From: an uncultured Leptospirales bacterium
GTDB taxonomy: Bacteria > Spirochaetota > UBA4802 > JAKQUI01
DNA length: 64,000 nt
Reading direction: 5' to 3'
Assembly (NCBI GenBank): GCA_964652955.1
Contig: CAZZCF010000007.1
Coordinates: 1 to 64,000 of the forward strand
Below the pieces are notes generated by a model. That model saw only the letters and a program-made list of their open reading frames with translations. It made no database searches and was not told the origin of the DNA. The position numbers were made by a program, and so were the translations under genes. This document shows, piece after piece, positions 32,619-42,519 of the stretch. Within the stretch, counting starts at the first letter, position 1; the number at the start of each line of letters is the position of its first letter.

Positions 32619-33044
32619 AATGATTTCATACTTTCTGGACGCCGGTTAGGCCGGCATGTCGAACTAAACAAAAAAAAAAATATAAACATAATTGAATCCA
32701 TCATAACAATATCACTACTATCGGCCATTGACATGATGGAAACAAACAATTATTCATTATATATGTATCAAGGTAACAGGTGAGGTGATCTACCGTTTCG
32801 ACACAGGGGAGAAGAGCTCTGATAAGAATGCGGATAGTGAGTTCTCTGTGTCAAGGAGTGCTCATATAAATAAACGCGGTGAACCTCCGAATTTTATGAG
32901 CTTACCTATGACAACGGAATTGTACAGAAAACGAAAATCATCTAATGGTCATGCATACCTGTGGTGTTGCATCCGTTAAATATAAAGCACATCCGGTCAT
33001 TGCAGAGAGCGGTACCGGAAAATTTAAGGGAGGATTATAATCGC

Positions 33045-33989
33045 ATGAATGAAAGCAAAGAGCATCTGAAAAAGAAAGTAGCAGTACTCGATGCTGTCAA
33101 CAGGGTTTTCAGGGAGGCGCTCCTCTGCGAAACGGAGGAGGAGGTTGCCAAGCAGTGCCTCGCGGTCGCCGAGGAGCTGACCGGGAGCAGGTTCGGTTAT
33201 ATCGGAGAGCTGAACGCTGCCGGTCTCTTCGACACCATCGCATTGAGCGATCCGGGATGGGGAGCGTGCAGAATGTCAGAAACAAATAAAGTTACTCTCA
33301 TCTATAACATGGAGATACGGGGCATATGGGGCCGGGTTCTACAAGATGGAAAATCGCTCATCGTCAACGAGCCGGCTTCACATCCCGACAGCACCGGCGT
33401 CCCCGAAGGACATCCGCCCCTGACAGCTTTTCTGGGAGTGCCATTGAAGCAGGTCGATAAGACGACCGGGATGATAGCCCTGGCGAACCGTGAGGGGGGC
33501 TATACTGATGCCGATCGCGAGGCAATCGAGGCTCTCTCGGTCGCCTTTGTGGAGGCCATACGAAGCAAACGGACCGAGCTCACCGTAAAGCAGCTCGCCC
33601 AAGAGATACTGGAGCTCTCCACACCGGTGATGCAGATATGGGATGGGGTGGTGGTGGCGCCGCTCATCGGCACCCTGGACATCGAGCGGACGCAGCAGTT
33701 CATGGAGCGACTCCTGAATGCCATTGTGGAGACGAAGTCTCCGGTCGCACTGATCGACATCACCGGTGTGCCGACCATCGACACGCAGACCGGGCAGCAT
33801 CTCATCGAAGCGATATCGGCTGCAAAGCTTCTGGGAACCGAAGTGGTGCTCACCGGCGTGAGTCCTGTTATTGCGCAGACGCTAGTGCACCTGGGCATCG
33901 ATCTCTCGGACTTCATCACCAGGTCGTCCCTCTCGGCGGGGGTGCGCGTGGCGCTGGATGCTTTGAATCTGCGTGTGGTCAGTAAATGA
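33045..33989 (+). CDS. RsbR-like stressosome sensor paralog 1: N-terminal GAF domain plus C-terminal STAS domain
   Basis: Start chosen at MNESKEHLKK (GGAGG RBS upstream). ORF track starts at 32961. The C-terminal 120 aa (ELSTPVMQIWDGVVVAPLIGTLD...IDITGVPTIDTQTGQHLIEA) matches the RsbR STAS domain. The N-terminal half is GAF-like. Confidence 0.78.
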   Translation: MNESKEHLKKKVAVLDAVNRVFREALLCETEEEVAKQCLAVAEELTGSRFGYIGELNAAGLFDTIALSDPGWGACRMSETNKVTLIYNMEIRGIWGRVLQDGKSLIVNEPASHPDSTGVPEGHPPLTAFLGVPLKQVDKTTGMIALANREGGYTDADREAIEALSVAFVEAIRSKRTELTVKQLAQEILELSTPVMQIWDGVVVAPLIGTLDIERTQQFMERLLNAIVETKSPVALIDITGVPTIDTQTGQHLIEAISAAKLLGTEVVLTGVSPVIAQTLVHLGIDLSDFITRSSLSAGVRVALDALNLRVVSK

Positions 33990-34043
33990 AGATATTACCT
34001 CTCGTGAGGTATACCTATCCGGAAACCATTTAAGGAGAATGAA

Positions 34044-34991
34044 ATGGCACAGAGGAAAAAAGATGACGGGAGAGCGCCGGGAAGCGAGTTCCTGTACCGC
34101 ACGCTTATAAACAACCTCCCCCAGAAGATATTCTACAAGGACAAGAATTCAGGGTACGTATCCTGCAACGAGAGCTTTGCAAAGGATTTAGGGATTACCC
34201 CGAGTGAGTTCGCCGGGAAGACCGATTTCGACTTCTTCCCGAAGGAACTGGCGGAGAAGTACCGCACCGACGACCTGCGTATCATGGAGGCCGGTAAAAT
34301 AGAAGAGATTGACGAGAGCTATTTGAAGGATGGAGAGGAGTTCTTCGTCCATACGGTCAAAGTGCCCATCAGAGACGTGGATGGTGAGATCGCGGGCATT
34401 CTCGGCATCTTCTGGGATGCCACCGCTAAAAAGCGTGATGAGGAGGAGCTGCAGCGGTACAAGGAACAGCTCGAGGAGATGGTGAAGGAGCGAACTGCAG
34501 AATTGCATCAAGCGAACGAGCGCCTCGAGGGGGAGATTGCCGAGGGGAAGCGGCGCGAGGAGATAATCGCGCAGCAGTCGCAGGAGATACTGGAGCTCTC
34601 AACGCCGGTACTGAAGATATGGGAGGGAGTTGTGGCGGCGCCGCTCATCGGCACCCTGGACAGCAATCGGACGCAGCAGTTCATGGACGTCTTTCTCAAC
34701 TCAATTGTGGCAAACAATGCACCGGTCGCACTCATCGACATCACCGGGGTGCCCACCATCGATACGCAGACCGGGCAGCACCTCATCGAGGCGATATCGG
34801 CGGCACGCCTCCTTGGCACCGAGGTGATTCTCACCGGGGTGCGGCCCGCCATCGCACAGACGCTGGTGCATCTGGGAATCGATCTCTCCGAGTTCAGAAC
34901 CTGCTCGTCCCTCTCCTCGGGCCTGAGCATGGCGCTGGAGACGCTCAACCGGGAGGTCATATCAAGAGATGACATACAAGGAGATCTGTAA
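34044..34991 (+). CDS. RsbR-like stressosome sensor paralog 2: PAS domain, coiled-coil linker, STAS domain
   Basis: 315 aa. PAS-like N-domain (FYKDKNSGYVSCNESFAKDLG), coiled-coil, then an RsbR-type STAS (ELSTPVLKIWEGVVAAPLIGTLD...). AAGGAG RBS. Confidence 0.8.
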   Translation: MAQRKKDDGRAPGSEFLYRTLINNLPQKIFYKDKNSGYVSCNESFAKDLGITPSEFAGKTDFDFFPKELAEKYRTDDLRIMEAGKIEEIDESYLKDGEEFFVHTVKVPIRDVDGEIAGILGIFWDATAKKRDEEELQRYKEQLEEMVKERTAELHQANERLEGEIAEGKRREEIIAQQSQEILELSTPVLKIWEGVVAAPLIGTLDSNRTQQFMDVFLNSIVANNAPVALIDITGVPTIDTQTGQHLIEAISAARLLGTEVILTGVRPAIAQTLVHLGIDLSEFRTCSSLSSGLSMALETLNREVISRDDIQGDL

Positions 34992-35161
34992 TGGGAGCTG
35001 AAAATATATCGGTCATTAAGATGGGAGATACGCTCATGGTTACGGTTCCGGCCGATCCGGACGACGAGACGGTATTCGCGCTGCAGGAGCGGATTCTCGC
35101 GGCAATGGAGAAGCAAGAGGTGAAGGAGCTTGAGGATTGCATTGTTGAAGATCTTCATTGA
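34991..35161 (+). pseudogene. Truncated duplicate of rsbS (first about 40 aa of the STAS protein, then diverges and stops)
   Basis: TAATG overlap with the paralog-2 stop. Encodes MGAENISVIKMGDTLMVTVPADPDDETV..., identical to the N-terminus of the intact RsbS at 36219, then out-of-family sequence and a stop after 56 aa. Confidence 0.6.
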
Positions 35162-35226
35162 GGTAAATGATTCAACTGTAATTTGATAATAATATTCGAA
35201 GATGTATTAAATTATAGGAGTATGGC

Positions 35227-36219
35227 ATGAGCAATGAGAGGAAAACAAAAAAAAAGCTTATCGAAGAACTGGAGGGACTGCGCGGCAAAATAACTGAACT
35301 CGAAGGGGCTATGTCTGAAGAAGAACCGATGTTACGTCGCGAACAGGATTTGATAGAGCTGAACAGGATGATGATATCGGCTTCAACGTTCGGTATTATC
35401 GTGTATAAGGCTTCCGGACAATGTGTTATTGCAAACGAAACGGCAGCCAAATCCATCGGTGCAACCAGAGAACAGGTGTTGCAGCAAAACTTTTACCATA
35501 TAGAATCATGGGAAAAGAGCGGTTTGCTTGAGGCAGCGAAAGGAGCACTCAAAGATGGATCGGATAAGAAGATTGAAATACATACTATTTCAACATTTGG
35601 GAAGGATATCTGGTTGGGATGCCGTTTTACTCCGTTTGTATACCTTGATGAACAATACCTCATGCTCATTTTTGAAAATATTACCGACCGGATTATCGTT
35701 TCACAGGAGCTGCAAAGAACCCGTGACGAACTGAAGGAGAAAAACGAGAAACTCGAGAAGGAGATATCAGAGGGCAGAAAACGAGAGGAGATAATAAGAC
35801 GGCAGCATCAGGAAATACTGGAGCTCTCAACACCTGTCATGAAAATCTGTGAGGGCGTGGTGGCGGCGCCTCTCATCGGCACACTGGACAGCCAGCGGAC
35901 GCAGCAGTTCATGGATGTCTTTCTCAATGCCATTGTTGATAACAACGCGCCGGTTGCTCTGGTGGATATCACCGGAGTTCCCACCATCGATACGCAGACC
36001 GGCCAGCATCTCATCGAGGCCATATCGGCGGCGCGCCTCCTGGGAACCGAGGTGATTCTCACCGGAGTGCGGCCCGCCATCGCGCAGACCCTGGTGCATC
36101 TCGGAATCGATCTCTCAGATCTCAGGACCTGCTCCTCCCTATCGGCAGGGCTGAGCATGGCGCTGAGGACGCTCAACCGGGAGGTCATATCAAGAGATGA
36201 CATACAAGGAGATCTGTAA
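35227..36219 (+). CDS. RsbR-like stressosome sensor paralog 3: PAS domain, coiled-coil, STAS domain
   Basis: 330 aa. PAS N-domain. The C-terminal STAS is nearly identical to paralog 2 (ELSTPVMKICEGVVAAPLIGTLD...NREVISRDDIQGDL). Confidence 0.8.
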   Translation: MSNERKTKKKLIEELEGLRGKITELEGAMSEEEPMLRREQDLIELNRMMISASTFGIIVYKASGQCVIANETAAKSIGATREQVLQQNFYHIESWEKSGLLEAAKGALKDGSDKKIEIHTISTFGKDIWLGCRFTPFVYLDEQYLMLIFENITDRIIVSQELQRTRDELKEKNEKLEKEISEGRKREEIIRRQHQEILELSTPVMKICEGVVAAPLIGTLDSQRTQQFMDVFLNAIVDNNAPVALVDITGVPTIDTQTGQHLIEAISAARLLGTEVILTGVRPAIAQTLVHLGIDLSDLRTCSSLSAGLSMALRTLNREVISRDDIQGDL

Positions 36220-36599
36220 TGGGAGCTGAAAATATATCGGTCATTAAGATGGGAGATACGCTCATGGTTACGGTTCCGGCCGATCCGGACGACGAGACGG
36301 TATCCGCGCTGCAGGAGCGGATTCTCGCGGCAATGGAGAAGCACGAGGCCAAGGGATTGATACTTGACTTATCCACCGTCGAGACGATGGATTCCTTTTT
36401 CGCGCGGATTGTGGCCGAGACCGCACAGATGGTTCAGCTCATGGGCGGCCGGACGGTGATCGCGGGGATGCGGGCGAGCGTTGCCATCACCACCACGCAG
36501 CTGGGGCTGACCCTGGGGAATGCCATGACCGCCCTCGACGTGGACTGGGCGCTCCTGATGCTCGTCAGGAAACCGGCCGGAGGCATTGGGGATGAATGA
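36219..36599 (+). CDS. rsbS: RsbS-like single-STAS anti-sigma-factor antagonist (stressosome scaffold)
   Basis: 126-aa STAS-only protein with the conserved phosphorylatable region (LILDLSTVETMDS). Translationally coupled (TAATG) to the preceding rsbR paralog. Confidence 0.82.
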   Translation: MGAENISVIKMGDTLMVTVPADPDDETVSALQERILAAMEKHEAKGLILDLSTVETMDSFFARIVAETAQMVQLMGGRTVIAGMRASVAITTTQLGLTLGNAMTALDVDWALLMLVRKPAGGIGDE

Positions 36600-37008
36600 C
36601 AACGAAAATCCGATTGGCGAGGTTCCAATTCAGAACGAGGGCGATATCGTATCGGCCCGTAAGGTCGCGAGAGAGGTGTCGCAAAAGCTCGGATTCGGCG
36701 TCACCGATGTCACCCGAATCGTGACTGCGGTCTCGGAGCTGGCGCGAAATATCTACCGCTTTGCCGGAACGGGGATAATGCGCTGGAGTGTCATGAACGA
36801 GGGTATTGTCGGTATTGAGCTCATATTCGAGGACAAGGGACCCGGCATCACCGATATTGAACAGGCTATGGGCTTGGGATTCACCAGCGGGCAGGGACTG
36901 GGGATGGGGCTTCCCGGAGCCAGGCGGCTCATGGATGAGCTGGAGATCGAGTCGCGGGTGGGAGTCGGCACCACGGTGACGGTGCGAAAGTGGCTCAAGA
37001 GAAAATAA
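36586..37008 (+). CDS. rsbT: RsbT-like GHKL serine kinase (switch protein)
   Basis: 140 aa. N-box SELARNIYRFAG, G1 DKGPGI, G2 GLGMGLPG. Overlaps the rsbS 3' end as in rsbRST operons. Confidence 0.82.
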   Translation: MGMNDNENPIGEVPIQNEGDIVSARKVAREVSQKLGFGVTDVTRIVTAVSELARNIYRFAGTGIMRWSVMNEGIVGIELIFEDKGPGITDIEQAMGLGFTSGQGLGMGLPGARRLMDELEIESRVGVGTTVTVRKWLKRK

Positions 37009-37009
37009 C

Positions 37010-38023
37010 GTGATTGATTCGGAACATTCCATACCGGTAACGCACACAGGCGATGTGAACAGAGCGCGCACGGCAGCAAGGGAAGCAGCCGTGAATATCG
37101 GTTTTGCCGAGAAGGAGGGGGAGGAGATCGCCCTGGTGACAAGCGAGCTCGCCACCAACCTCTGCAAGCATGCGAGGGGCGGCGTTCTGATCATCTCGGC
37201 AATCGGGGAAGGAACGAAGCGGGGGATTCAGGTTGAAACGTCCGACCGGGGGCCGGGAATAGCCGATGTCGACGATGCAATGACCAACGGCTTTTCCACA
37301 ACGGGGAGCCTCGGGTACGGGATTGGAACGGTTATCAGGCTCATGGATGAGGTTGCTGTCAGTTCCCTGGAGAAGGATGCCGGCACGAGGGTGATCTGCA
37401 AAAGATGGGTTCGCGATATGAGTGACGGGGTAAAGAGATGTCCGCTCGATTTCGGCGTTGCAATCCGTCCCCGTCCGGGGAGCAGCCTTAACGGCGATGC
37501 GTATGTAATCAGGAAGTGGAACGATTGTGCACTGGTCGGACTCATCGACGGTCTCGGGCACGGACAGTTTGCTCATCGTGCATCGCAGACGGCAAAGAAG
37601 TACATCGAGAGGCATTTCGAACAGCCGCTGCAGAATCTCTTTCTCGGGACGGCGCGGCAGTGCCGGTCAACGCGGGGAGTGGTGATGGCGCTTGCCCGTT
37701 TCGACTGGGAAGCAAAGCGGCTCACCTTCGCGAGCGTGGGGAATGTCGAGGTGCGGGTAGTAAATAGCCACGAGAAGTTTTCTTTTATTCAGCGGCGTGG
37801 CGTCATCGGTCTCAATGCGCCCGCTCCGGCGGTTACCGAGCACCGGTGGGAGGAGCACTATATTATGATTATGCATACGGATGGATTGAGAACGCGATGG
37901 CAGTGGAAGGATTTTCCGGAGCTCGTCGAGCAATCGGCAACCGAAGCAGCGCGTTTGTTTCTCCATAAGCTTGCAAAGGATATTGACGACGCAGCGGTTC
38001 TGGTGGTGAAGAGGAGAATATGA
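37010..38023 (+). CDS. Fusion protein: RsbW/RsbT-like GHKL kinase domain plus PP2C (SpoIIE-type) serine phosphatase domain
   Basis: 337 aa, GTG start. N-terminal GHKL motifs (SELATNLCKHARGG, DRGPGI, GYGIG). C-terminal PP2C metal-binding Asp motifs (GDAYVI, DGLGHG, MHTDGL). Confidence 0.78.
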   Translation: MIDSEHSIPVTHTGDVNRARTAAREAAVNIGFAEKEGEEIALVTSELATNLCKHARGGVLIISAIGEGTKRGIQVETSDRGPGIADVDDAMTNGFSTTGSLGYGIGTVIRLMDEVAVSSLEKDAGTRVICKRWVRDMSDGVKRCPLDFGVAIRPRPGSSLNGDAYVIRKWNDCALVGLIDGLGHGQFAHRASQTAKKYIERHFEQPLQNLFLGTARQCRSTRGVVMALARFDWEAKRLTFASVGNVEVRVVNSHEKFSFIQRRGVIGLNAPAPAVTEHRWEEHYIMIMHTDGLRTRWQWKDFPELVEQSATEAARLFLHKLAKDIDDAAVLVVKRRI

Positions 38024-38880
38024 AACAGGAGGAATTGCAGAAAAAGCTTGATAAGGCCTTGAGAACAATTCAGTCGCTTCAAGGTGAGCTCAGAGAGACC
38101 AATCAGGGCGTCATAGCACTCAACCTTGAGCTGGAGCAGCGGGTTGAGGAGAAGGAGAGGGCGGAGGAAGCGCTCCAGGATGCAAACAAGGAGCTCGAAG
38201 CCTTCAGCTACTCGGTATCGCATGACCTCCGGGCGCCGCTGCGTGCCATTGACGGCTTCGCCAATATACTCCTCGAGGAGTACAATGATGTGCTCGATGA
38301 TGAGGGGAAACGATTAATCGGTATAATTATGAAAAACGTCAATTCGATGGGGCAGCTCATCGACGATCTCCTGGCTTTCTCCCGGTTGAGCCGTCAGCAG
38401 ATGCAGCGTTTGGTGATAGACGTGCGACCGCTGGTTCAGGAGGTTGTCGACAATCTCATGCAGAGTGAAAATAACCGAAATATCGAATGGAAGATCGACG
38501 CGCTCCCCCCGGTGATCGGCGATCGCTCCATGATCCGGCAGGTCTACGCCAATCTCCTCTCCAACGCGATCAAGTTCACCCGGAAGCGGGATATCGCCCG
38601 CATCGAGGTGGGAGCACGTAAATGTGATGAGGAGATTGTCTATTTTGTACGGGATAACGGTGCGGGATTCGATATGCAGTATCAAGAGAAGCTCTTTGTC
38701 GTTTTCCAGCGGCTGCACAGCGAGAAGGATTTCGAGGGGACCGGTGTCGGTATGGCCAACGTCAGGCGCATCGTTCACCGGCACGGGGGACGGATCTGGG
38801 CGGAGGGGAAGGTCGGCGAGGGCGCGACTTTTTATTTTACCATTCCACCCGAGGAGGGAACCGATGAAATATCCCGATGA
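38020..38880 (+). CDS. Soluble histidine kinase (N-terminal coiled-coil, HisKA, HATPase_c). No sensor domain.
   Basis: 286 aa. About 60-aa coiled-coil, then H-box SHDLRAPL and GHKL motifs (DNGAGFD, GTGVGMA). ATGA overlap with the upstream gene. Confidence 0.85.
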   Translation: MKQEELQKKLDKALRTIQSLQGELRETNQGVIALNLELEQRVEEKERAEEALQDANKELEAFSYSVSHDLRAPLRAIDGFANILLEEYNDVLDDEGKRLIGIIMKNVNSMGQLIDDLLAFSRLSRQQMQRLVIDVRPLVQEVVDNLMQSENNRNIEWKIDALPPVIGDRSMIRQVYANLLSNAIKFTRKRDIARIEVGARKCDEEIVYFVRDNGAGFDMQYQEKLFVVFQRLHSEKDFEGTGVGMANVRRIVHRHGGRIWAEGKVGEGATFYFTIPPEEGTDEISR

Positions 38881-39396
38881 AGTTGGGAGTCTCCCCGTCG
38901 AAGTCCTGACCGGCGAGGTCAAAGTCGCCGCTGTTGGAGTCCTCCGCGCCAGCGCGTTGGGTTCATGCGTTGCGGTTGCGATGCTCGATGTTGAGGCCGG
39001 GATCGGCGGTCTTGCGCACGTGATGCTGCCGGGGTCCTCACCCGGTTACCGGGATGCAAAAGGAACGAAGTACGCCGAGGACGGGATACGCGAATTGATT
39101 CACTCCATGACGGCGCAGGGTGCGCGGCTCGAAAGTCTCGTGGCCTGTGTGTTGTCGGCGGCGGCAACATCCTCGAGCGTTATGACGACACGATCTGCGA
39201 GGCGAATATCAGGTCGGTTACCAAGGTTCTCGCAGGGATGGGCATTCGGATAATGGCCTGCGAGGTGGGTGGCTCCCAACGAAGGAGCGTTTCCCTCGAC
39301 GTGGAGTCCGCTCGTGTTTCCTGCACGGTCGGGGACTCGGCCTCGAAGCTGCTATGGCAAGGCCGGGGCGAGCGAGAGGAGGATGTCAACTCATGA
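38864..39396 (+). pseudogene. cheD: cheD (chemoreceptor glutamine deamidase) with an apparent single-base frameshift near 39148-39155
   Basis: Starts at MKYPDEV (GAGGAGG RBS) with the CheD core LGSCVAVAMLD...GGLAHVMLPG. After ...LVACV the reading frame shifts. The conserved continuation VGGGNILERYDD...ACEVGGSQRRSVSLDVESARV runs in the other frame to a TGA overlapping the next gene's ATG. Confidence 0.65.
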
Positions 39397-42092
39397 AGCG
39401 AAGGACAAAAGCGGATATACAACGAGAGAAGGGAGAGTTCCGCCAGCGCAGCACCGAACTGGAGTGCTCGGAGGACGGTACGTCGGAGAGCGGCAAGCTG
39501 GCGGCGGAGGTGAAAATCAAGGAAGCCCAGTATCGCGGGGTATTCGAGGCATCGAAAGACACTATCCTCATTTTCGATCTCGACGGCGTGATCAAAGAGG
39601 TCAATCCCGCCGCCTGCGACATGTATGGCTACTCGCACGGGGAGATGGTCGGACTCACCGGGAGGGACATTGTGCATCACGACTATCACCACTTGTTCAA
39701 GGAATTCGTTGCGAAAGCAGGGGCGGGCGAGCTGTTTGCCGCCGAGTCGGTTGATCTTCGGAAAGACGGTTCACAATTTGACATAGAGGTCAGAGGAAGT
39801 GGTTTCGAGTATATGGGCCGCCCTCATCTTCTCGCCATCGTTCGTGACATCACTGAGCGCAAGCAGATGGCGAAGGGCCTCCGGCGCATGGCGACGGTGG
39901 TGAGAGACTCCAACGACGCGATCACGATCCAGGACTTCGAGGGTAGGATCACGGACTGGAACCACGGCGCCGAGCTGATGTACGGCTATTCTGAGGAAGA
40001 GGCGTTCCAGTCGAACATCGATCGTCTGACGATTCCCGCCAAGGTTGCAGAGCAGAATGCTTTCATCCAACGGTTGGCGGCGGGCGAAGACGTCACGTCG
40101 TTCGAGACCCAGCGGGTGACCAAGGACGGGCGCGTCCTCGATGTCTGGATGACCGTCACCAAGCTGATGGACGATGCCGGCAAGCCGATTGGCCTGGCCT
40201 CCACCGAGCGCGACATCACCGAGCGCAAGCGGGCCGAGGCGGCGCGCGACGCTGCCTACCAGCAGCTCCTTAAGGCGGAACGAGATCTCTCAATCAGAAA
40301 CAAGATCAACGAGATATGCCTGACCATATCCGACGAGGAGATGTACGGCGAGATTCTGAAGGTCGTCTTGGAGCAGTTGAAGAGCAAGTACGGGACCTTT
40401 GGATGCCTCGAAGAGGACGGCTCACTGGTCGTCCCTTCCATGACCAGGGACGTCTGGGATCAATGCCGAGTTCCGCAAAAGGACATTATCTTCCCAAGAG
40501 ACAAATGGGGAAACAGCATCTGGTGCCGGGCGATCCTGGAGAAGAAGACCCTTCATTCAAATGAGCCGTCATACGTTCCAGAAGGGCACATCCCCATCCT
40601 TCGCAACATATCTGTACCCATCACATATGAGGGCAAAGCAATCGGCCTGTTCCAGGTCGCCAACAAGGATGCGGATTACGACGAAAACGACATCCAGATT
40701 CTCGAAACTATCGCCGGATTCGTAGCGCCGGTTCTAAATGCCAGGCTGCAAAGAGACAGGGAACTGCGGGAGCGCGAAAGAGCCGAAGAAGCGCTCAAGG
40801 CGTCAAACCAACAACTGGTGGCCAGCGAGCAGCAGCTCCGAGCAGCAAATCAGCAATTAGATGCCGGCAACCAGCAGCTCAGGGCCACCGAGCAGCAGCT
40901 TCGCGCGTCGAATCAGCAACTGGAGGCGAGCAATCAGCAGCTCCGGGCAACCGAGCGAGAGCTTCGGCAAAGCGAGCAGTTCATCAGGGCGGTGTTGGAC
41001 AACCTTCCTGTCGGCGTCGCTGTGAACTCGGTAGATCCCGCCGTGGCGTTCAGCTATATGAACGACAGCTTCCCAAGGATATACCGCACCACCAGAGAGG
41101 CGCTCGCCGACCGGGATGCCTTCTGGGAGGCGGTATATGAAGACCCCGTGTTCCGGGCGGAGATCAGGAAGAGGGTGCTGGAGGACTGCGCAAGCGGAGA
41201 CCCGGGAAGCATGAGATGGGAAGACGTCCCGATAACGCGCGAGGGGCAGGAGACTTCCTTCATTTTCGCGCGCAACATACCGGTTGCCGGAAAGGACCTG
41301 GCGATATCCATGGTATGGGATGTGACCGAGCGCAAGCGCGCGGAGGAAGAGCTCAGAAGACACCGCGATAATCTCGAAGAGCTGGTCGCGGAGCGCACCG
41401 TAGAGCTCGAGGCCTTCAGCTACTCGGTATCGCATGATCTCCGGACGCCGCTGCGGGCCATCGACGGCTTCGCAAATATTCTCCTCGAGGAGCACAACGA
41501 TGCGCTCGAAGAAGAGGGAAAACGGCTGCTCGGCATTATAATGAAGAATGTCAATTCAATGGGACAGCTCATCGACGATCTCCTGTCCTTCTCCCGGCTG
41601 GGCCGGCAGGAGATGAAGCGTATGGAGATTGACGTGCGGGCGCTGGTTCGGGAGGTTATCGACAATCTCATGCAGAGTGAGAATAATCGTAATATCGAAT
41701 GGAAGATCGACACGCTCCCTTCAATGATCGGCGATCGCTCGATGATACGGCAGGTCTACGCCAATCTCCTCTCCAACGCGATCAAGTTCACCCGGAAGCG
41801 GGATGCCGCGCGCGTCGAGGTAAGTTCCCGGGAGATCGACGAAGCAATTGTCTATTTCGTGCGGGATAACGGCGCTGGCTTCGATATGCAGTACGCGGAG
41901 AAGCTCTTCGGCGTCTTCCAGCGGCTGCACAGCGAGAAGGAGTTCGAGGGGACCGGGGTCGGCCTTGCCAATGTCAGGCGCATCGTTCACCGGCACGGGG
42001 GCAGGATCTGGGCCGAGGGGAAGGTCGGCGAGGGCGCGACTTTTTATTTTACCATTATGCATGAGGAGGGAACCGATGAAATATCCCGATGA
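39393..42092 (+). CDS. Cytoplasmic multi-sensor histidine kinase: PAS-PAS-GAF, heptad-repeat coiled-coil, PAS, HisKA, HATPase_c
   Basis: Start chosen at MKRRTKAD (AGGAGG RBS; track ORF starts at 39354). Two PAS (DITERK linkers), a GAF-like block, eight 7-aa repeats (A-x-N/E-Q-Q-L-R), a further PAS, and a kinase core paralogous to 38020..38880. Confidence 0.85.
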
Positions 42093-42519
42093 AGTCGAGA
42101 TTCTTCTCGTCGAGGACAAGGAGGAGGACGTGGAGCTCACTCTGCGGGCGCTGCGAAAGAACAACCTGGCGAACCGGGTGCACGTGGTTTCGGACGGCCA
42201 GGAGGCGATTGATTTCATCTTTGGGAAGGGAGCATACAGTGGGAGAGATATCAACCATACACCGAGGGTTATTCTCCTCGACCTGAAGCTTCCCAGGGTG
42301 AGCGGCCTTGAGGTGCTTCAGAGGATCAAGTCTGATGAACGGACAAAGGTGATACCGGTGGTGATGCTCACCTCCTCCAAAGAAGAGCAGGATATCGTCG
42401 AGAGCTACCGGCTGGGGGTGAACAGCTACATCGTCAAGCCGGTGAGCTTCAACGATTTCGTGAAGGCGGTTACCGACCTGGGCCTGTACTGGATGCTGCT
42501 CAATAAGCCGGCATTCTAG
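42076..42519 (+). CDS. Single-domain response regulator (REC only)
   Basis: 147 aa. Starts [18 protein letters not shown]. Acceptor in VILLDLKLP. Conserved K in IVKP. Overlaps the kinase 3' end. Confidence 0.82.

What the first reader, a model, noticed from the sequence alone, without database searches (positions are those of the whole stretch)
34561..36360. Recent tandem duplication of the rsbR-STAS/rsbS junction leaving a truncated rsbS pseudogene
The 3' ends of RsbR paralogs 2 and 3 are about 90% identical at DNA level, from the ELSTPV motif through the stop codons. The last roughly 160 nt, plus the first roughly 120 nt of the following rsbS reading frame, are virtually identical. The copy after paralog 2 degenerates into a 56-aa stub (34991..35161). 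This is a footprint of tandem segmental duplication with gene conversion. It shows the sensor repertoire is actively diversifying.
Basis: seen in the sequence. Interest (0 to 1): 0.55.

Follow-up and report, generated by a model that had tools for sequence, protein, structure and literature searches.

The report
Stressosome sensor gain leaving rsbS stub
A bacterial stress-sensing operon gained a third sensor gene through a duplication-plus-insertion that left a dead 56-codon fragment of the next gene (rsbS); this is an ordinary kind of event, but comparison with relatives shows the sensor genes are also being swapped between lineages.

Summary
A 612-nt block (34515-35126) recurs 1,228 nt downstream (35743-36354). 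Identity is 82% over the first 425 nt and 99.4% over the next 176 nt (34940-35115). Homology stops at rsbS codon ~45. No permutation out of 20,000 reproduced the 136-nt perfect run.

The stub (34991-35161) lacks the conserved Ser59. It carries 3-4 private substitutions, all non-synonymous. It is absent from 11 related operons.

This is not a plain tandem copy of paralog 2. The 616 nt between the copies (35127-35742) hold a leader plus the PAS sensor domain of paralog 3. They are low in GC (43%, against 53-62% around them) and have no relative nearby.

The closest relative (L010) has R1-R2-rsbS-rsbT with no paralog 3 and no stub. It is 99.3% identical to the window across 32809-34938 and only 75-82% outside. 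That switch lies at the left edge of the perfect tract.

I favour a young duplication-insertion whose upstream copy was later partly overwritten by an allele exchanged between lineages. An older or foreign paralog plus recent gene conversion remains a real alternative.

A second repeat of the same design sits downstream in the operon. This is an ordinary kind of event in a well-resolved instance.

The parts
33045..33989 (+). RsbR paralog 1 (GAF + STAS). The likely true start is ATG 33045; the mechanical ORF starts at GTG 32961.
   Evidence: Pfam GAF_2 and STAS. The 314-aa gene call in the ENA and Logan contigs is 99.4% identical to R1 of L010.
32809..34938 (+). A 2.13-kb segment covering the R1 leader, R1, and R2 up to 53 nt before its stop. 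It is 99.2-99.5% identical to relative L010. The flanks are only ~75% (left) and ~80-82% (right) identical.
   Evidence: blastn and the per-60-nt identity profile. The switch falls between 34939 and 34945.
34044..34991 (+). RsbR paralog 2 (PAS + STAS).
   Evidence: Pfam PAS_4 and STAS. Exactly this protein occurs on six contigs from several assemblies.
34515..35126 (+). Upstream copy of the 612-nt repeat: linker helix, STAS, C-terminal tail, and the first ~45 codons of rsbS.
   Evidence: Ungapped alignment to 35743-36354.
34940..35115 (+). Upstream copy of the near-perfect tract: 176 nt with one mismatch at 35076.
34991..35161 (+). rsbS 5' stub. Fifty-six codons: ~45 from rsbS, then 11 unrelated codons and a stop. 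It lacks Ser59.
   Evidence: tblastn matches RsbS residues 1-47 at 91%. No Pfam hit. Private changes S29F, H42Q and A44V, plus T18M in two ENA assemblies. Ser59 position taken from the PDB alignment.
35127..35742 (+). Unique low-GC spacer: an AT-rich leader with an AGGAG ribosome-binding site, then the N-terminal PAS sensor module of paralog 3.
   Evidence: GC 42.8% and GC3 45.3%, against 53-62% and 61-76% around it. No DNA or close protein match in the window or the loci. The best PAS relatives are ≤55% identical and sit in long multi-PAS sensor proteins.
35227..36219 (+). RsbR paralog 3 (PAS + STAS), intact.
   Evidence: Pfam. The STAS half aligns end to end with the Listeria RsbR STAS and keeps Ser/Thr at both phospho-acceptor positions. 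No orthologue other than itself in 5.8 billion proteins.
35743..36354 (+). Downstream copy of the 612-nt repeat.
36168..36343 (+). Downstream copy of the near-perfect tract.
36219..36599 (+). Intact rsbS (126 aa, single STAS, Ser59 conserved).
   Evidence: Pfam STAS. Aligns to Listeria, Bacillus and Moorella RsbS structures.
36586..37008 (+). rsbT-type kinase.
   Evidence: Pfam HATPase_c_2. Conserved next to rsbS in all relatives.

Best explanation
The locus is a stressosome operon: three RsbR-type sensors, RsbS, an RsbT kinase, then a kinase-like/PP2C fusion and two-component genes. In this lineage it gained a third sensor through one duplication-insertion.

Proposed event. A compositionally foreign 616-bp piece (leader plus a new PAS sensor domain) was placed in front of a second copy of the block 'STAS domain + C-terminal tail + first ~45 codons of rsbS'. 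The downstream copy became an intact new gene (paralog 3) followed by the working rsbS. The upstream copy kept only a dead 5' piece of rsbS behind paralog 2.

Age. The event is young. The stub still matches rsbS up to the breakpoint and the inserted piece has not adopted the host's GC content.

Later step. The upstream part of the locus (R1 and R2 up to 34938) was replaced by homologous recombination with an allele shared with a sister lineage. On this reading the two STAS copies are only 82% alike because they now have different ancestries. The 176-nt perfect tract is what is left of the young duplication.

Status of each step.
- Shown: the repeat anatomy, the foreign composition of the spacer, the absence of paralog 3 and the stub in relatives, the decay signature of the stub, and the 99.3% shared segment with its boundary at the tract edge.
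- Inferred: the order of events, the direction of the exchange, and the molecular route. The route is probably recombination anchored in the conserved STAS/rsbS junction with one illegitimate joint at 35126|35127.
For: Anatomy.
- Repeat of 612 nt, period 1228, with an 82.1% / 99.4% step.
- Spacer GC 42.8% and GC3 45%, against 67% for the STAS half of the same gene. Paralog 3 is therefore itself a chimera of foreign sensor and host-type STAS.

Presence and absence.
- L010 has R1-R2-rsbS-rsbT. L007, L008 and L009 have an R2-type gene directly before rsbS.
- None of 11 related operons has a stub, including one with three R paralogs.
- Paralog 3 has no orthologue in the protein database.

Distances.
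- The STAS of paralog 3 is 81-82% identical to the R2 orthologues. That matches the window-to-L007 and window-to-L010 distance in rsbS-rsbT of 81-83%. This is what a host-native STAS copy would show.

Mosaic.
- The window and L010 are 99.2-99.5% identical over 32809-34938 and 75-82% outside. The switch at 34939-34945 abuts the start of the perfect tract at 34940. This model predicts that coincidence by construction.

Stub decay.
- The stub has three private substitutions, all non-synonymous, at sites conserved in three functional RsbS proteins.
- A fourth (T18M) is the only difference between assemblies over 21 kb.
- It lacks Ser59.

Recurrence. A second repeat of the same design lies downstream: a kinase C-terminus plus the start of the response-regulator gene.
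Against: - GC3 of the shared R1-R2 segment is 70-75%. That fits the window's genes (61-76%) but is 8-19 points above L010's own flanking genes (55-67%). L010's orthologues are otherwise 8-12 points below the window's. This suggests the segment entered L010, not the window. If so, the boundary coincidence needs another cause, or a third lineage donated to both.
- The linker part of the repeat (34515-34580) is only 60-64% identical between paralog 3 and any R2, while R2 orthologues are 82-87% alike there. The host-derived block may therefore start nearer 34581.
- L010 is a single 6.8-kb Logan contig. A chimeric assembly is unlikely but cannot be excluded without reads.
- No genome of this lineage predating either event is available.
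Confidence: 0.45

Rival explanations
1. Essentially the first reader's model. Paralog 3 is an older paralogue, or a paralogue imported whole from another lineage, whose STAS diverged ~18% from paralog 2. A single recent gene conversion, or a target duplication made at insertion, made the last 176-187 nt of the two R/rsbS junctions identical. The 99.3% segment shared with L010 is then an export from this lineage into L010. Its end point next to the tract edge is a coincidence, or reflects a preferred crossover site at the end of the conserved STAS block.
For: - The perfect run is statistically extreme. The two copies within one genome are 99.4% alike while orthologues are 80-85% alike. This is the classic signature of gene conversion.
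- GC3 indicates the R1-R2 segment is compositionally at home in the window and an outlier in L010.
- The region right of 34939 is AT-richer and less conserved between lineages than the STAS block. Crossovers may tend to resolve there.
Against: - It requires two independent recombination end points within ≤7 nt of each other, roughly 1-5% a priori.
- An old paralogue would need to be lost in both sister lineages.
- An old stub should have decayed. The low-GC spacer has not adjusted to the host.
- A wholly imported paralog 3 should not jump from GC3 45% to 67% at the PAS/STAS boundary.
- No homogenisation is seen anywhere else in the STAS.
Confidence: 0.3
2. An L010-type fragment (R1, R2 and the first ~136 nt of rsbS) was inserted upstream of a resident paralog 3. 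The route was homology-facilitated illegitimate recombination, with a homologous crossover near 32809 and an illegitimate joint at 35126|35127. The stub was therefore the truncated end of the incoming DNA. It was later converted to the resident rsbS sequence over 34940-35115.
For: - It explains the shared segment, the sharp illegitimate joint and the boundary coincidence with known mechanisms. The mechanism is described in PMC3240628 and PMC5361080.
- At 35122 the stub carries G like L010 and L007, while the window's rsbS has C.
Against: - The stub has accumulated 3-4 private changes in 187 nt since it last matched rsbS. That is more than expected if the conversion is younger than an exchange that left only 9 scattered differences and one 8-nt cluster in 2,130 nt. 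The numbers are small, so this is weak.
- GC3 argues against L010 as the long-term home of the segment.
- It leaves the foreign composition of paralog 3's sensor half as a separate, unexplained event.
Confidence: 0.1
3. Assembly artefact. The R2-stub-R3 arrangement, or its copy number, results from mis-joining two strains or collapsing a repeat.
For: - One assembly (ERZ27256778) breaks inside the repeat.
- All data are short-read metagenome assemblies.
Against: - Two assemblies span the locus with the same order (window; ERZ27256770 74-kb contig).
- The copies are told apart by private bases at 35043, 35076, 35116 and 35121.
- The stub tail joined to paralog 3 appears in all three assemblies.
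- The R2 protein that crosses the 34939 junction is on six contigs.
Confidence: 0.05
4. The 56-aa ORF is a functional small protein or a translational-coupling device, not a pseudogene.
For: - It keeps the TAATG overlap with paralog 2 and an open frame.
- No terminator is predicted between R2 and R3, so it is probably transcribed and translated.
Against: - It holds only ~45 of 126 STAS residues and lacks Ser59.
- It has no Pfam hit.
- All 4 private or polymorphic changes are non-synonymous.
- It is absent from 11 related operons.
Confidence: 0.05

Closest known systems
RsbR paralogue families of stressosomes (Bacillus subtilis RsbRA-RD/YtvA, Listeria RsbR/RsbL)
   Same: Several sensors share a conserved C-terminal STAS domain that co-assembles with RsbS, and differ in their N-terminal sensory domains (PMC9237108, PMC9765535). 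Here R1 has GAF and R2 and R3 have two unrelated PAS domains, all followed by RsbS and RsbT.
   Different: - Here the paralogues sit in tandem directly upstream of rsbS.
- The birth scar of the newest one, an rsbS 5' fragment, is still visible.
- The output is a kinase-like/PP2C fusion and two-component genes rather than sigma B.
Module displacement or insertion anchored in a conserved gene part (T6SS effector-immunity arrays in Vibrio cholerae; Rhs/CDI C-terminal displacement with orphan fragments)
   Same: A new variable module enters next to a conserved block. It leaves behind a fragment or orphan copy of neighbouring sequence. [quoted passage not shown] Here the conserved anchor is the STAS/rsbS junction, and in a second case the kinase C-terminus/response-regulator junction.
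   Different: - The polarity is reversed: the N-terminal part varies and the C-terminal anchor is constant.
- The old module is kept intact rather than displaced, so the repertoire grows.
- These are signalling genes, not toxins.
Ectopic gene conversion between tandem paralogues (for example tuf genes or rRNA operons)
   Same: There is a long perfect tract between copies within one genome, while orthologues are 15-20% apart across the same tract.
   Different: - Only one tract is seen and it ends at the end of homology.
- The rest of the paralogous STAS shows no homogenisation.
- One partner is a non-functional fragment.
Mosaic allele replacement by natural transformation or homologous recombination between diverged lineages
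   Same: A 2.13-kb tract at 99.3% identity is embedded in ~20% diverged flanks, with sharp ends and an internal 34-nt patch of clustered differences. Discontinuous mosaic tracts are described for transformation (PMC13344027).
   Different: The direction and the vehicle are unknown. The organisms are uncultured and known only from metagenome contigs.

Membership tests
Stressosome RsbR-RsbS-RsbT module | RsbR-type protein: variable N-terminal domain plus a C-terminal STAS with conserved phospho-acceptor positions | tested here: met
   Pfam finds GAF or PAS plus STAS in all three. R3 residues 187-324 align to Listeria RsbR 140-277, with Ser at the Thr175 position and Thr at the Thr209 position.
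Stressosome RsbR-RsbS-RsbT module | RsbS: single STAS protein with a conserved phosphorylatable Ser | tested here: met
   The 126-aa protein aligns to RsbS of 6qcm, 6jhk and 2vy9. Ser59 aligns to the Listeria Ser that is mutated in 9o4r.
Stressosome RsbR-RsbS-RsbT module | RsbT-type serine kinase encoded directly downstream | tested here: met
   HATPase_c_2 at 36586-37008. Same order in 11 relatives.
Stressosome RsbR-RsbS-RsbT module | Assembly of R and S into a ~1.8-MDa complex that sequesters RsbT | not testable with these tools
   Needs biochemistry or cryo-EM.
Simple tandem duplication of paralog 2 plus the rsbS 5' end | Head-to-tail copies whose junction joins the right end of the unit to sequence homologous to its left end | tested here: not met
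   After the joint at 35126|35127 come 616 nt with no similarity to anything upstream of or inside paralog 2, and with foreign composition.
Gene remnant (pseudogene fragment) | Homologous to part of a functional gene, lacks essential residues, shows no purifying selection, absent from relatives | tested here: met
   - Covers RsbS residues 1-~45 only and has no Ser59.
- 4 of 4 private or polymorphic changes are non-synonymous.
- Absent in 11 related loci.
- The selection test rests on four substitutions, so it is weak.
Gene conversion tract | Identity run significantly longer than the flanking divergence allows, with paralogues more alike than orthologues | tested here: met
   0 of 20,000 permutations. 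99.4% within the genome against 80-85% to orthologues.
Gene conversion tract | The tract cannot be explained instead by differing ancestry of the flanks (a recombination mosaic) | tested here: inconclusive
   The left edge coincides with the end of the L010-shared segment. The direction of that exchange is unresolved.
Homology-facilitated illegitimate recombination product | One homologous junction, one illegitimate junction at a microhomology, and foreign DNA between them | tested here: inconclusive
   The foreign-looking spacer and the sharp joint at 35126|35127 are present. The donor sequence is unknown, so microhomology cannot be assessed.

The most novel reading that the evidence does not exclude
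Stressosome and adjacent two-component operons may enlarge their sensor sets by a recurrent, cassette-like route. A new sensor module is captured upstream of a duplicated 'conserved C-terminal domain + start of the next gene' anchor. This operon has two such cases: R3 with the rsbS stub, and the 899-aa kinase with a response-regulator start fused to a CheD fragment. Whole sensor alleles would also sweep across lineages ~20% apart. Their recombination end points would be held at the STAS C-terminal tail because that tail must match the cognate RsbS.
Probability: 0.2. Interest if true: 0.55.

Novelty: new member of a known kind. Interest (0 to 1): 0.35.

Why it matters
How bacteria acquire new inputs to a shared signalling hub is usually inferred from paralogues that diverged long ago. 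Here the scar of one acquisition is still readable. It shows the exact joints, a foreign sensor half grafted onto a host-type STAS half, and a decaying fragment of the next gene. A sister lineage preserves the state without the insertion. The locus also shows a sensor-gene allele shared almost unchanged between lineages that are ~20% divergent elsewhere. This gives concrete, testable material on domain grafting and on exchange of stressosome sensors. No new principle is involved.

Tried and rejected
- The genome-contig scan with RsbS found only 63-67% relatives from other phyla, with no close genome. The metagenome-contig scan was similar, with the best hit at 77%. Neither gave a same-lineage contig.
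- The stub protein was 'not on record'. The ENA assemblies carry the T18M variant, which explains this.
- The look-up of the JGI variant of the PP2C fusion protein (P0243) returned nothing.
- Cluster look-ups gave no organism names. The taxon stays unknown.
- The N-terminal-only word-index search of paralog 3 found nothing. The exhaustive HMMER search found only ≤55% PAS relatives in unrelated sensor proteins, so no donor could be named.
- I tested whether the 8-mismatch cluster in the R1 STAS (33719-33752) is a conversion patch from R2 or R3. It matches neither cleanly.
- I looked for a promoter or terminator in the stub-R3 gap. Nothing exceeded shuffled expectation.
- I considered a Campbell-type integration of a circularised fragment. 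It gives the right topology but predicts that the two junction copies have different (donor and recipient) ancestry. That does not fit 99.4% identity beside an 82% STAS.
- I considered L010 being a chimeric Logan contig. This would need the assembler to switch strains twice against coverage, and the window's lineage was found in a different Logan run (SRR6963311). I judge it unlikely, but it is not excluded.
Full report
**What is at the coordinates**

The region is a stressosome-type operon. Its genes run in this order:
- R1 (GAF + STAS), 33045-33989
- R2 (PAS + STAS), 34044-34991
- a 56-codon ORF, 34991-35161
- R3 (PAS + STAS), 35227-36219
- rsbS, 36219-36599
- an rsbT-type kinase, 36586-37008
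- a kinase-like/PP2C fusion, 37010-38023
- histidine kinases and response regulators

RsbS aligns along its length to solved RsbS structures. Its Ser59 aligns to the Listeria Ser that is mutated in 9o4r. The C-terminal half of R3 aligns end to end with the Listeria RsbR STAS domain and keeps Ser/Thr at both phospho-acceptor positions. R3 therefore looks functional.

**Checking the observation**

Window 34515-35126 aligns without gaps to 35743-36354, at an offset of 1228 nt. There are 80 mismatches in 612 nt.

Identity falls into two tiers:
- 82.1% over 34515-34939
- 99.4% over 34940-35115, where the only mismatch is at 35076

Further mismatches occur at 35116, 35121 and 35122. Homology ends near 35126 with a 1-nt indel.

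That stretch has 16 mismatches and only the last 52 nt of R2 are perfect. The figure of about 90% from ELSTPV to the stop is 87.1%.

The step is not chance. The 136-nt perfect run was never reached in 20,000 permutations of the mismatches. Neither was the run of 63 identical third-codon positions. It is not selection either. Orthologous sequences from two sister lineages are only 80-85% identical over the same tract.

**Is the assembly sound?**

- An independent ENA assembly (ERZ27256770, 74,410-nt contig, locus L017) spans R1-R2-stub-R3-rsbS in the same order. It differs from the window at one base in 21 kb.
- A third assembly (ERZ27256778) is broken in the repeat. One contig ends at window 35042 and the other begins at 34984.
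- The break sits one base before 35043, the single position where the ENA assemblies differ from the window. There the ENA stub has T and the rsbS copy has C.
- The stub tail leading into R3 is seen in all three assemblies.
- The R2 protein that spans the 34939 junction is on six contigs.

I therefore treat the arrangement as real. Copy number cannot be verified without reads.

**The stub**

- It keeps the TAATG stop/start overlap with R2 and about 45 codons of rsbS. Eleven unrelated codons and a stop follow.
- It ends before Ser59 and has no Pfam hit.
- Compared with the window's rsbS and the rsbS of two sister lineages, it carries three private changes: S29F, H42Q and A44V. All are non-synonymous and at conserved sites.
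- The only polymorphism between assemblies is a fourth non-synonymous change inside it, T18M.
- None of 11 related stressosome operons has such a fragment. One of them has three R paralogues in a row.

It is best read as a decaying remnant. That conclusion rests on four substitutions.

**Not a plain tandem copy of R2**

- The 616 nt between the two repeat copies (35127-35742) comprise an AT-rich leader with an AGGAG site and the first 172 codons of R3.
- They have 42.8% GC and 45% GC3. Neighbouring genes have 53-62% GC and 61-76% GC3. The STAS half of the same gene has 67% GC3.
- They show no DNA similarity to R2, to the rest of the window or to the relatives.
- R3 has no orthologue other than itself among 5.8 billion proteins.
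- Its PAS module has only ≤55% relatives, which lie in long multi-PAS sensor proteins.

R3 is therefore a graft of a foreign sensor half onto a host-type STAS half.

**Relatives**

- RsbS has two 90%-identical relatives.
- L010 (Logan SRR7614767) reads kinase - response regulator - R1 - R2 - rsbS - rsbT, with no R3 and no stub.
- L007, L008 and L009 (JGI and Logan) have an R2-type gene directly before rsbS.
- The three lineages are about equally distant in rsbS-rsbT: 80.9%, 82.8% and 83.4%.

**The unexpected mosaic**

- The window and L010 are 99.2-99.5% identical over 32809-34938. This covers the R1 leader, R1, and R2 up to 53 nt before its stop.
- Identity is only ~75% to the left and 80-82% to the right.
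- The switch lies between 34939 and 34945. That is the left edge of the intragenomic perfect tract, which starts at 34940.
- A 2.13-kb sensor-gene allele has therefore recently moved between lineages that are ~20% divergent elsewhere.
- R3's STAS is equally far from the window's R2 (82.1%) and from L007's R2 (81.2%). R2 orthologues are 86.4% alike.
- There is no sign of homogenisation anywhere in the STAS part.

**Favoured history (about 45%)**

1. A young duplication-insertion created the stub, the foreign sensor half and a second copy of the host STAS/rsbS junction.
2. Homologous recombination later replaced the upstream R1-R2 up to 34938 with the shared allele.
3. The perfect tract is what remains of the young duplication.
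4. The 82% tier is the ordinary distance between two lineages.

This accounts for four things: the boundary coincidence (by construction), the freshness of the stub right up to the breakpoint, the unadjusted composition of the spacer, and the host-like distance of R3's STAS to the R2 orthologues.

**Main rival (about 30%)**

R3 is an older or imported paralogue, and one recent gene conversion (or a target duplication) covered the junction. The shared allele would then have been exported from this lineage into L010.

GC3 supports this direction.
- L010's own genes are 8-12 points lower in GC3 than the window's orthologues.
- The shared segment has 70-75% GC3, so it looks at home in the window and foreign in L010.

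The cost is that two independent recombination end points must fall within ≤7 nt of each other. That is conceivable if crossovers tend to resolve at the end of the conserved STAS block, before the AT-richer and less conserved tail.

**The conflict between the two clues**

The boundary coincidence and the GC3 evidence point in opposite directions. I could not resolve this with the contigs available.

**Lesser rivals**

- An L010-type fragment inserted by homology-facilitated illegitimate recombination and then converted (about 10%)
- An assembly artefact (about 5%)
- A functional stub (about 5%)

**Comparison with known systems**

- Variable N-terminal sensors on a constant STAS domain are the defining feature of RsbR paralogues (PMC9237108, PMC9765535).
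- Insertion of a new module next to a conserved anchor, leaving orphan fragments, has been described for T6SS effector-immunity arrays and for Rhs/CDI loci. Homology-facilitated illegitimate recombination was proposed as the route (PMC5361080, PMC3240628).
- Mosaic tracts are typical of transformation between diverged strains (PMC13344027).

This locus is a new and unusually legible instance of known processes. It is not a new kind of element.

**A second case in the same operon**

- 38191-38901 and 41403-42113 form a 711-nt direct repeat at 86% identity, with a period of 3212 nt.
- The repeat covers the C-terminal catalytic part of a histidine kinase and the first ~38 nt of the following response-regulator gene.
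- The upstream copy's response-regulator start (MKYPDEV) is fused to half a CheD domain.
- A PAS-GAF kinase follows (912-aa ORF; 899 aa as called in the ENA contigs), and then the intact response regulator.
- L007 lacks this insert.

The same design occurring twice suggests a recurrent route to new sensors.

**Verdict**

- Novelty: a new member of a known kind.
- Interest is moderate to low at 0.35. The inter-lineage mosaic and the recurrent architecture raise it somewhat.

Noticed in passing
window 38191-38901 and 41403-42113; ORF 38864-39253: A second direct repeat of the same design: 711 nt, 86% identity, period 3212. It covers the C-terminal part of a histidine kinase plus the first ~38 nt of the next response-regulator gene. 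The upstream response-regulator start (MKYPDEV) is fused to half a CheD domain (Pfam positions 1-59 of 108). A PAS-GAF kinase (912-aa ORF; 899 aa as called in the ENA contigs) and the intact regulator follow. Relative L007 has kinase and regulator adjacent, with no insert.
   Followed up: partly
window 33682 (R1 codon in 'LDIERTQ'): R1 of the window has Ile where R1 of L010, R2 and R3 have Ser. This position aligns to Thr175, the first phospho-acceptor, of Listeria RsbR. It is one of the few differences inside the 99.3% shared segment and could change how R1 is regulated.
   Followed up: partly
window 33719-33752: Eight of the 17 window-versus-L010 differences in the shared 2.13-kb segment cluster in 34 nt of the R1 STAS. 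The patch matches neither R2 nor R3 cleanly. It may be a small mosaic tract from a third allele.
   Followed up: partly
window 35043: This is the only base that differs between the window and two ENA assemblies (21 kb and 11.6 kb compared). It lies inside the stub (C/T, T18M). The ERZ27256778 contig L002 stops exactly one base before it.
   Followed up: yes
window 32809-34938 versus L010 flanks: L010's own genes have GC3 8-12 points below their window orthologues. The shared R1-R2 segment has the window's GC3 level of 70-75%. The segment therefore looks imported in L010, which conflicts with the argument from the junction coincidence.
   Followed up: partly
window 37010-38023 and relatives L004-L016: In this operon family RsbT is always followed by a second RsbT-like HATPase_c_2 domain fused to a SpoIIE/PP2C phosphatase, rather than by separate RsbU or RsbX genes. 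Two-component and HD-GYP-type genes follow it, instead of a sigma factor.
   Followed up: no
window 40806-40973: An imperfect 63/42-nt in-frame repeat encoding 'NQQL(R/E)A(S/T)EQQLRA' heptad-like units, within the coiled-coil linker of the large PAS-GAF kinase.
   Followed up: no
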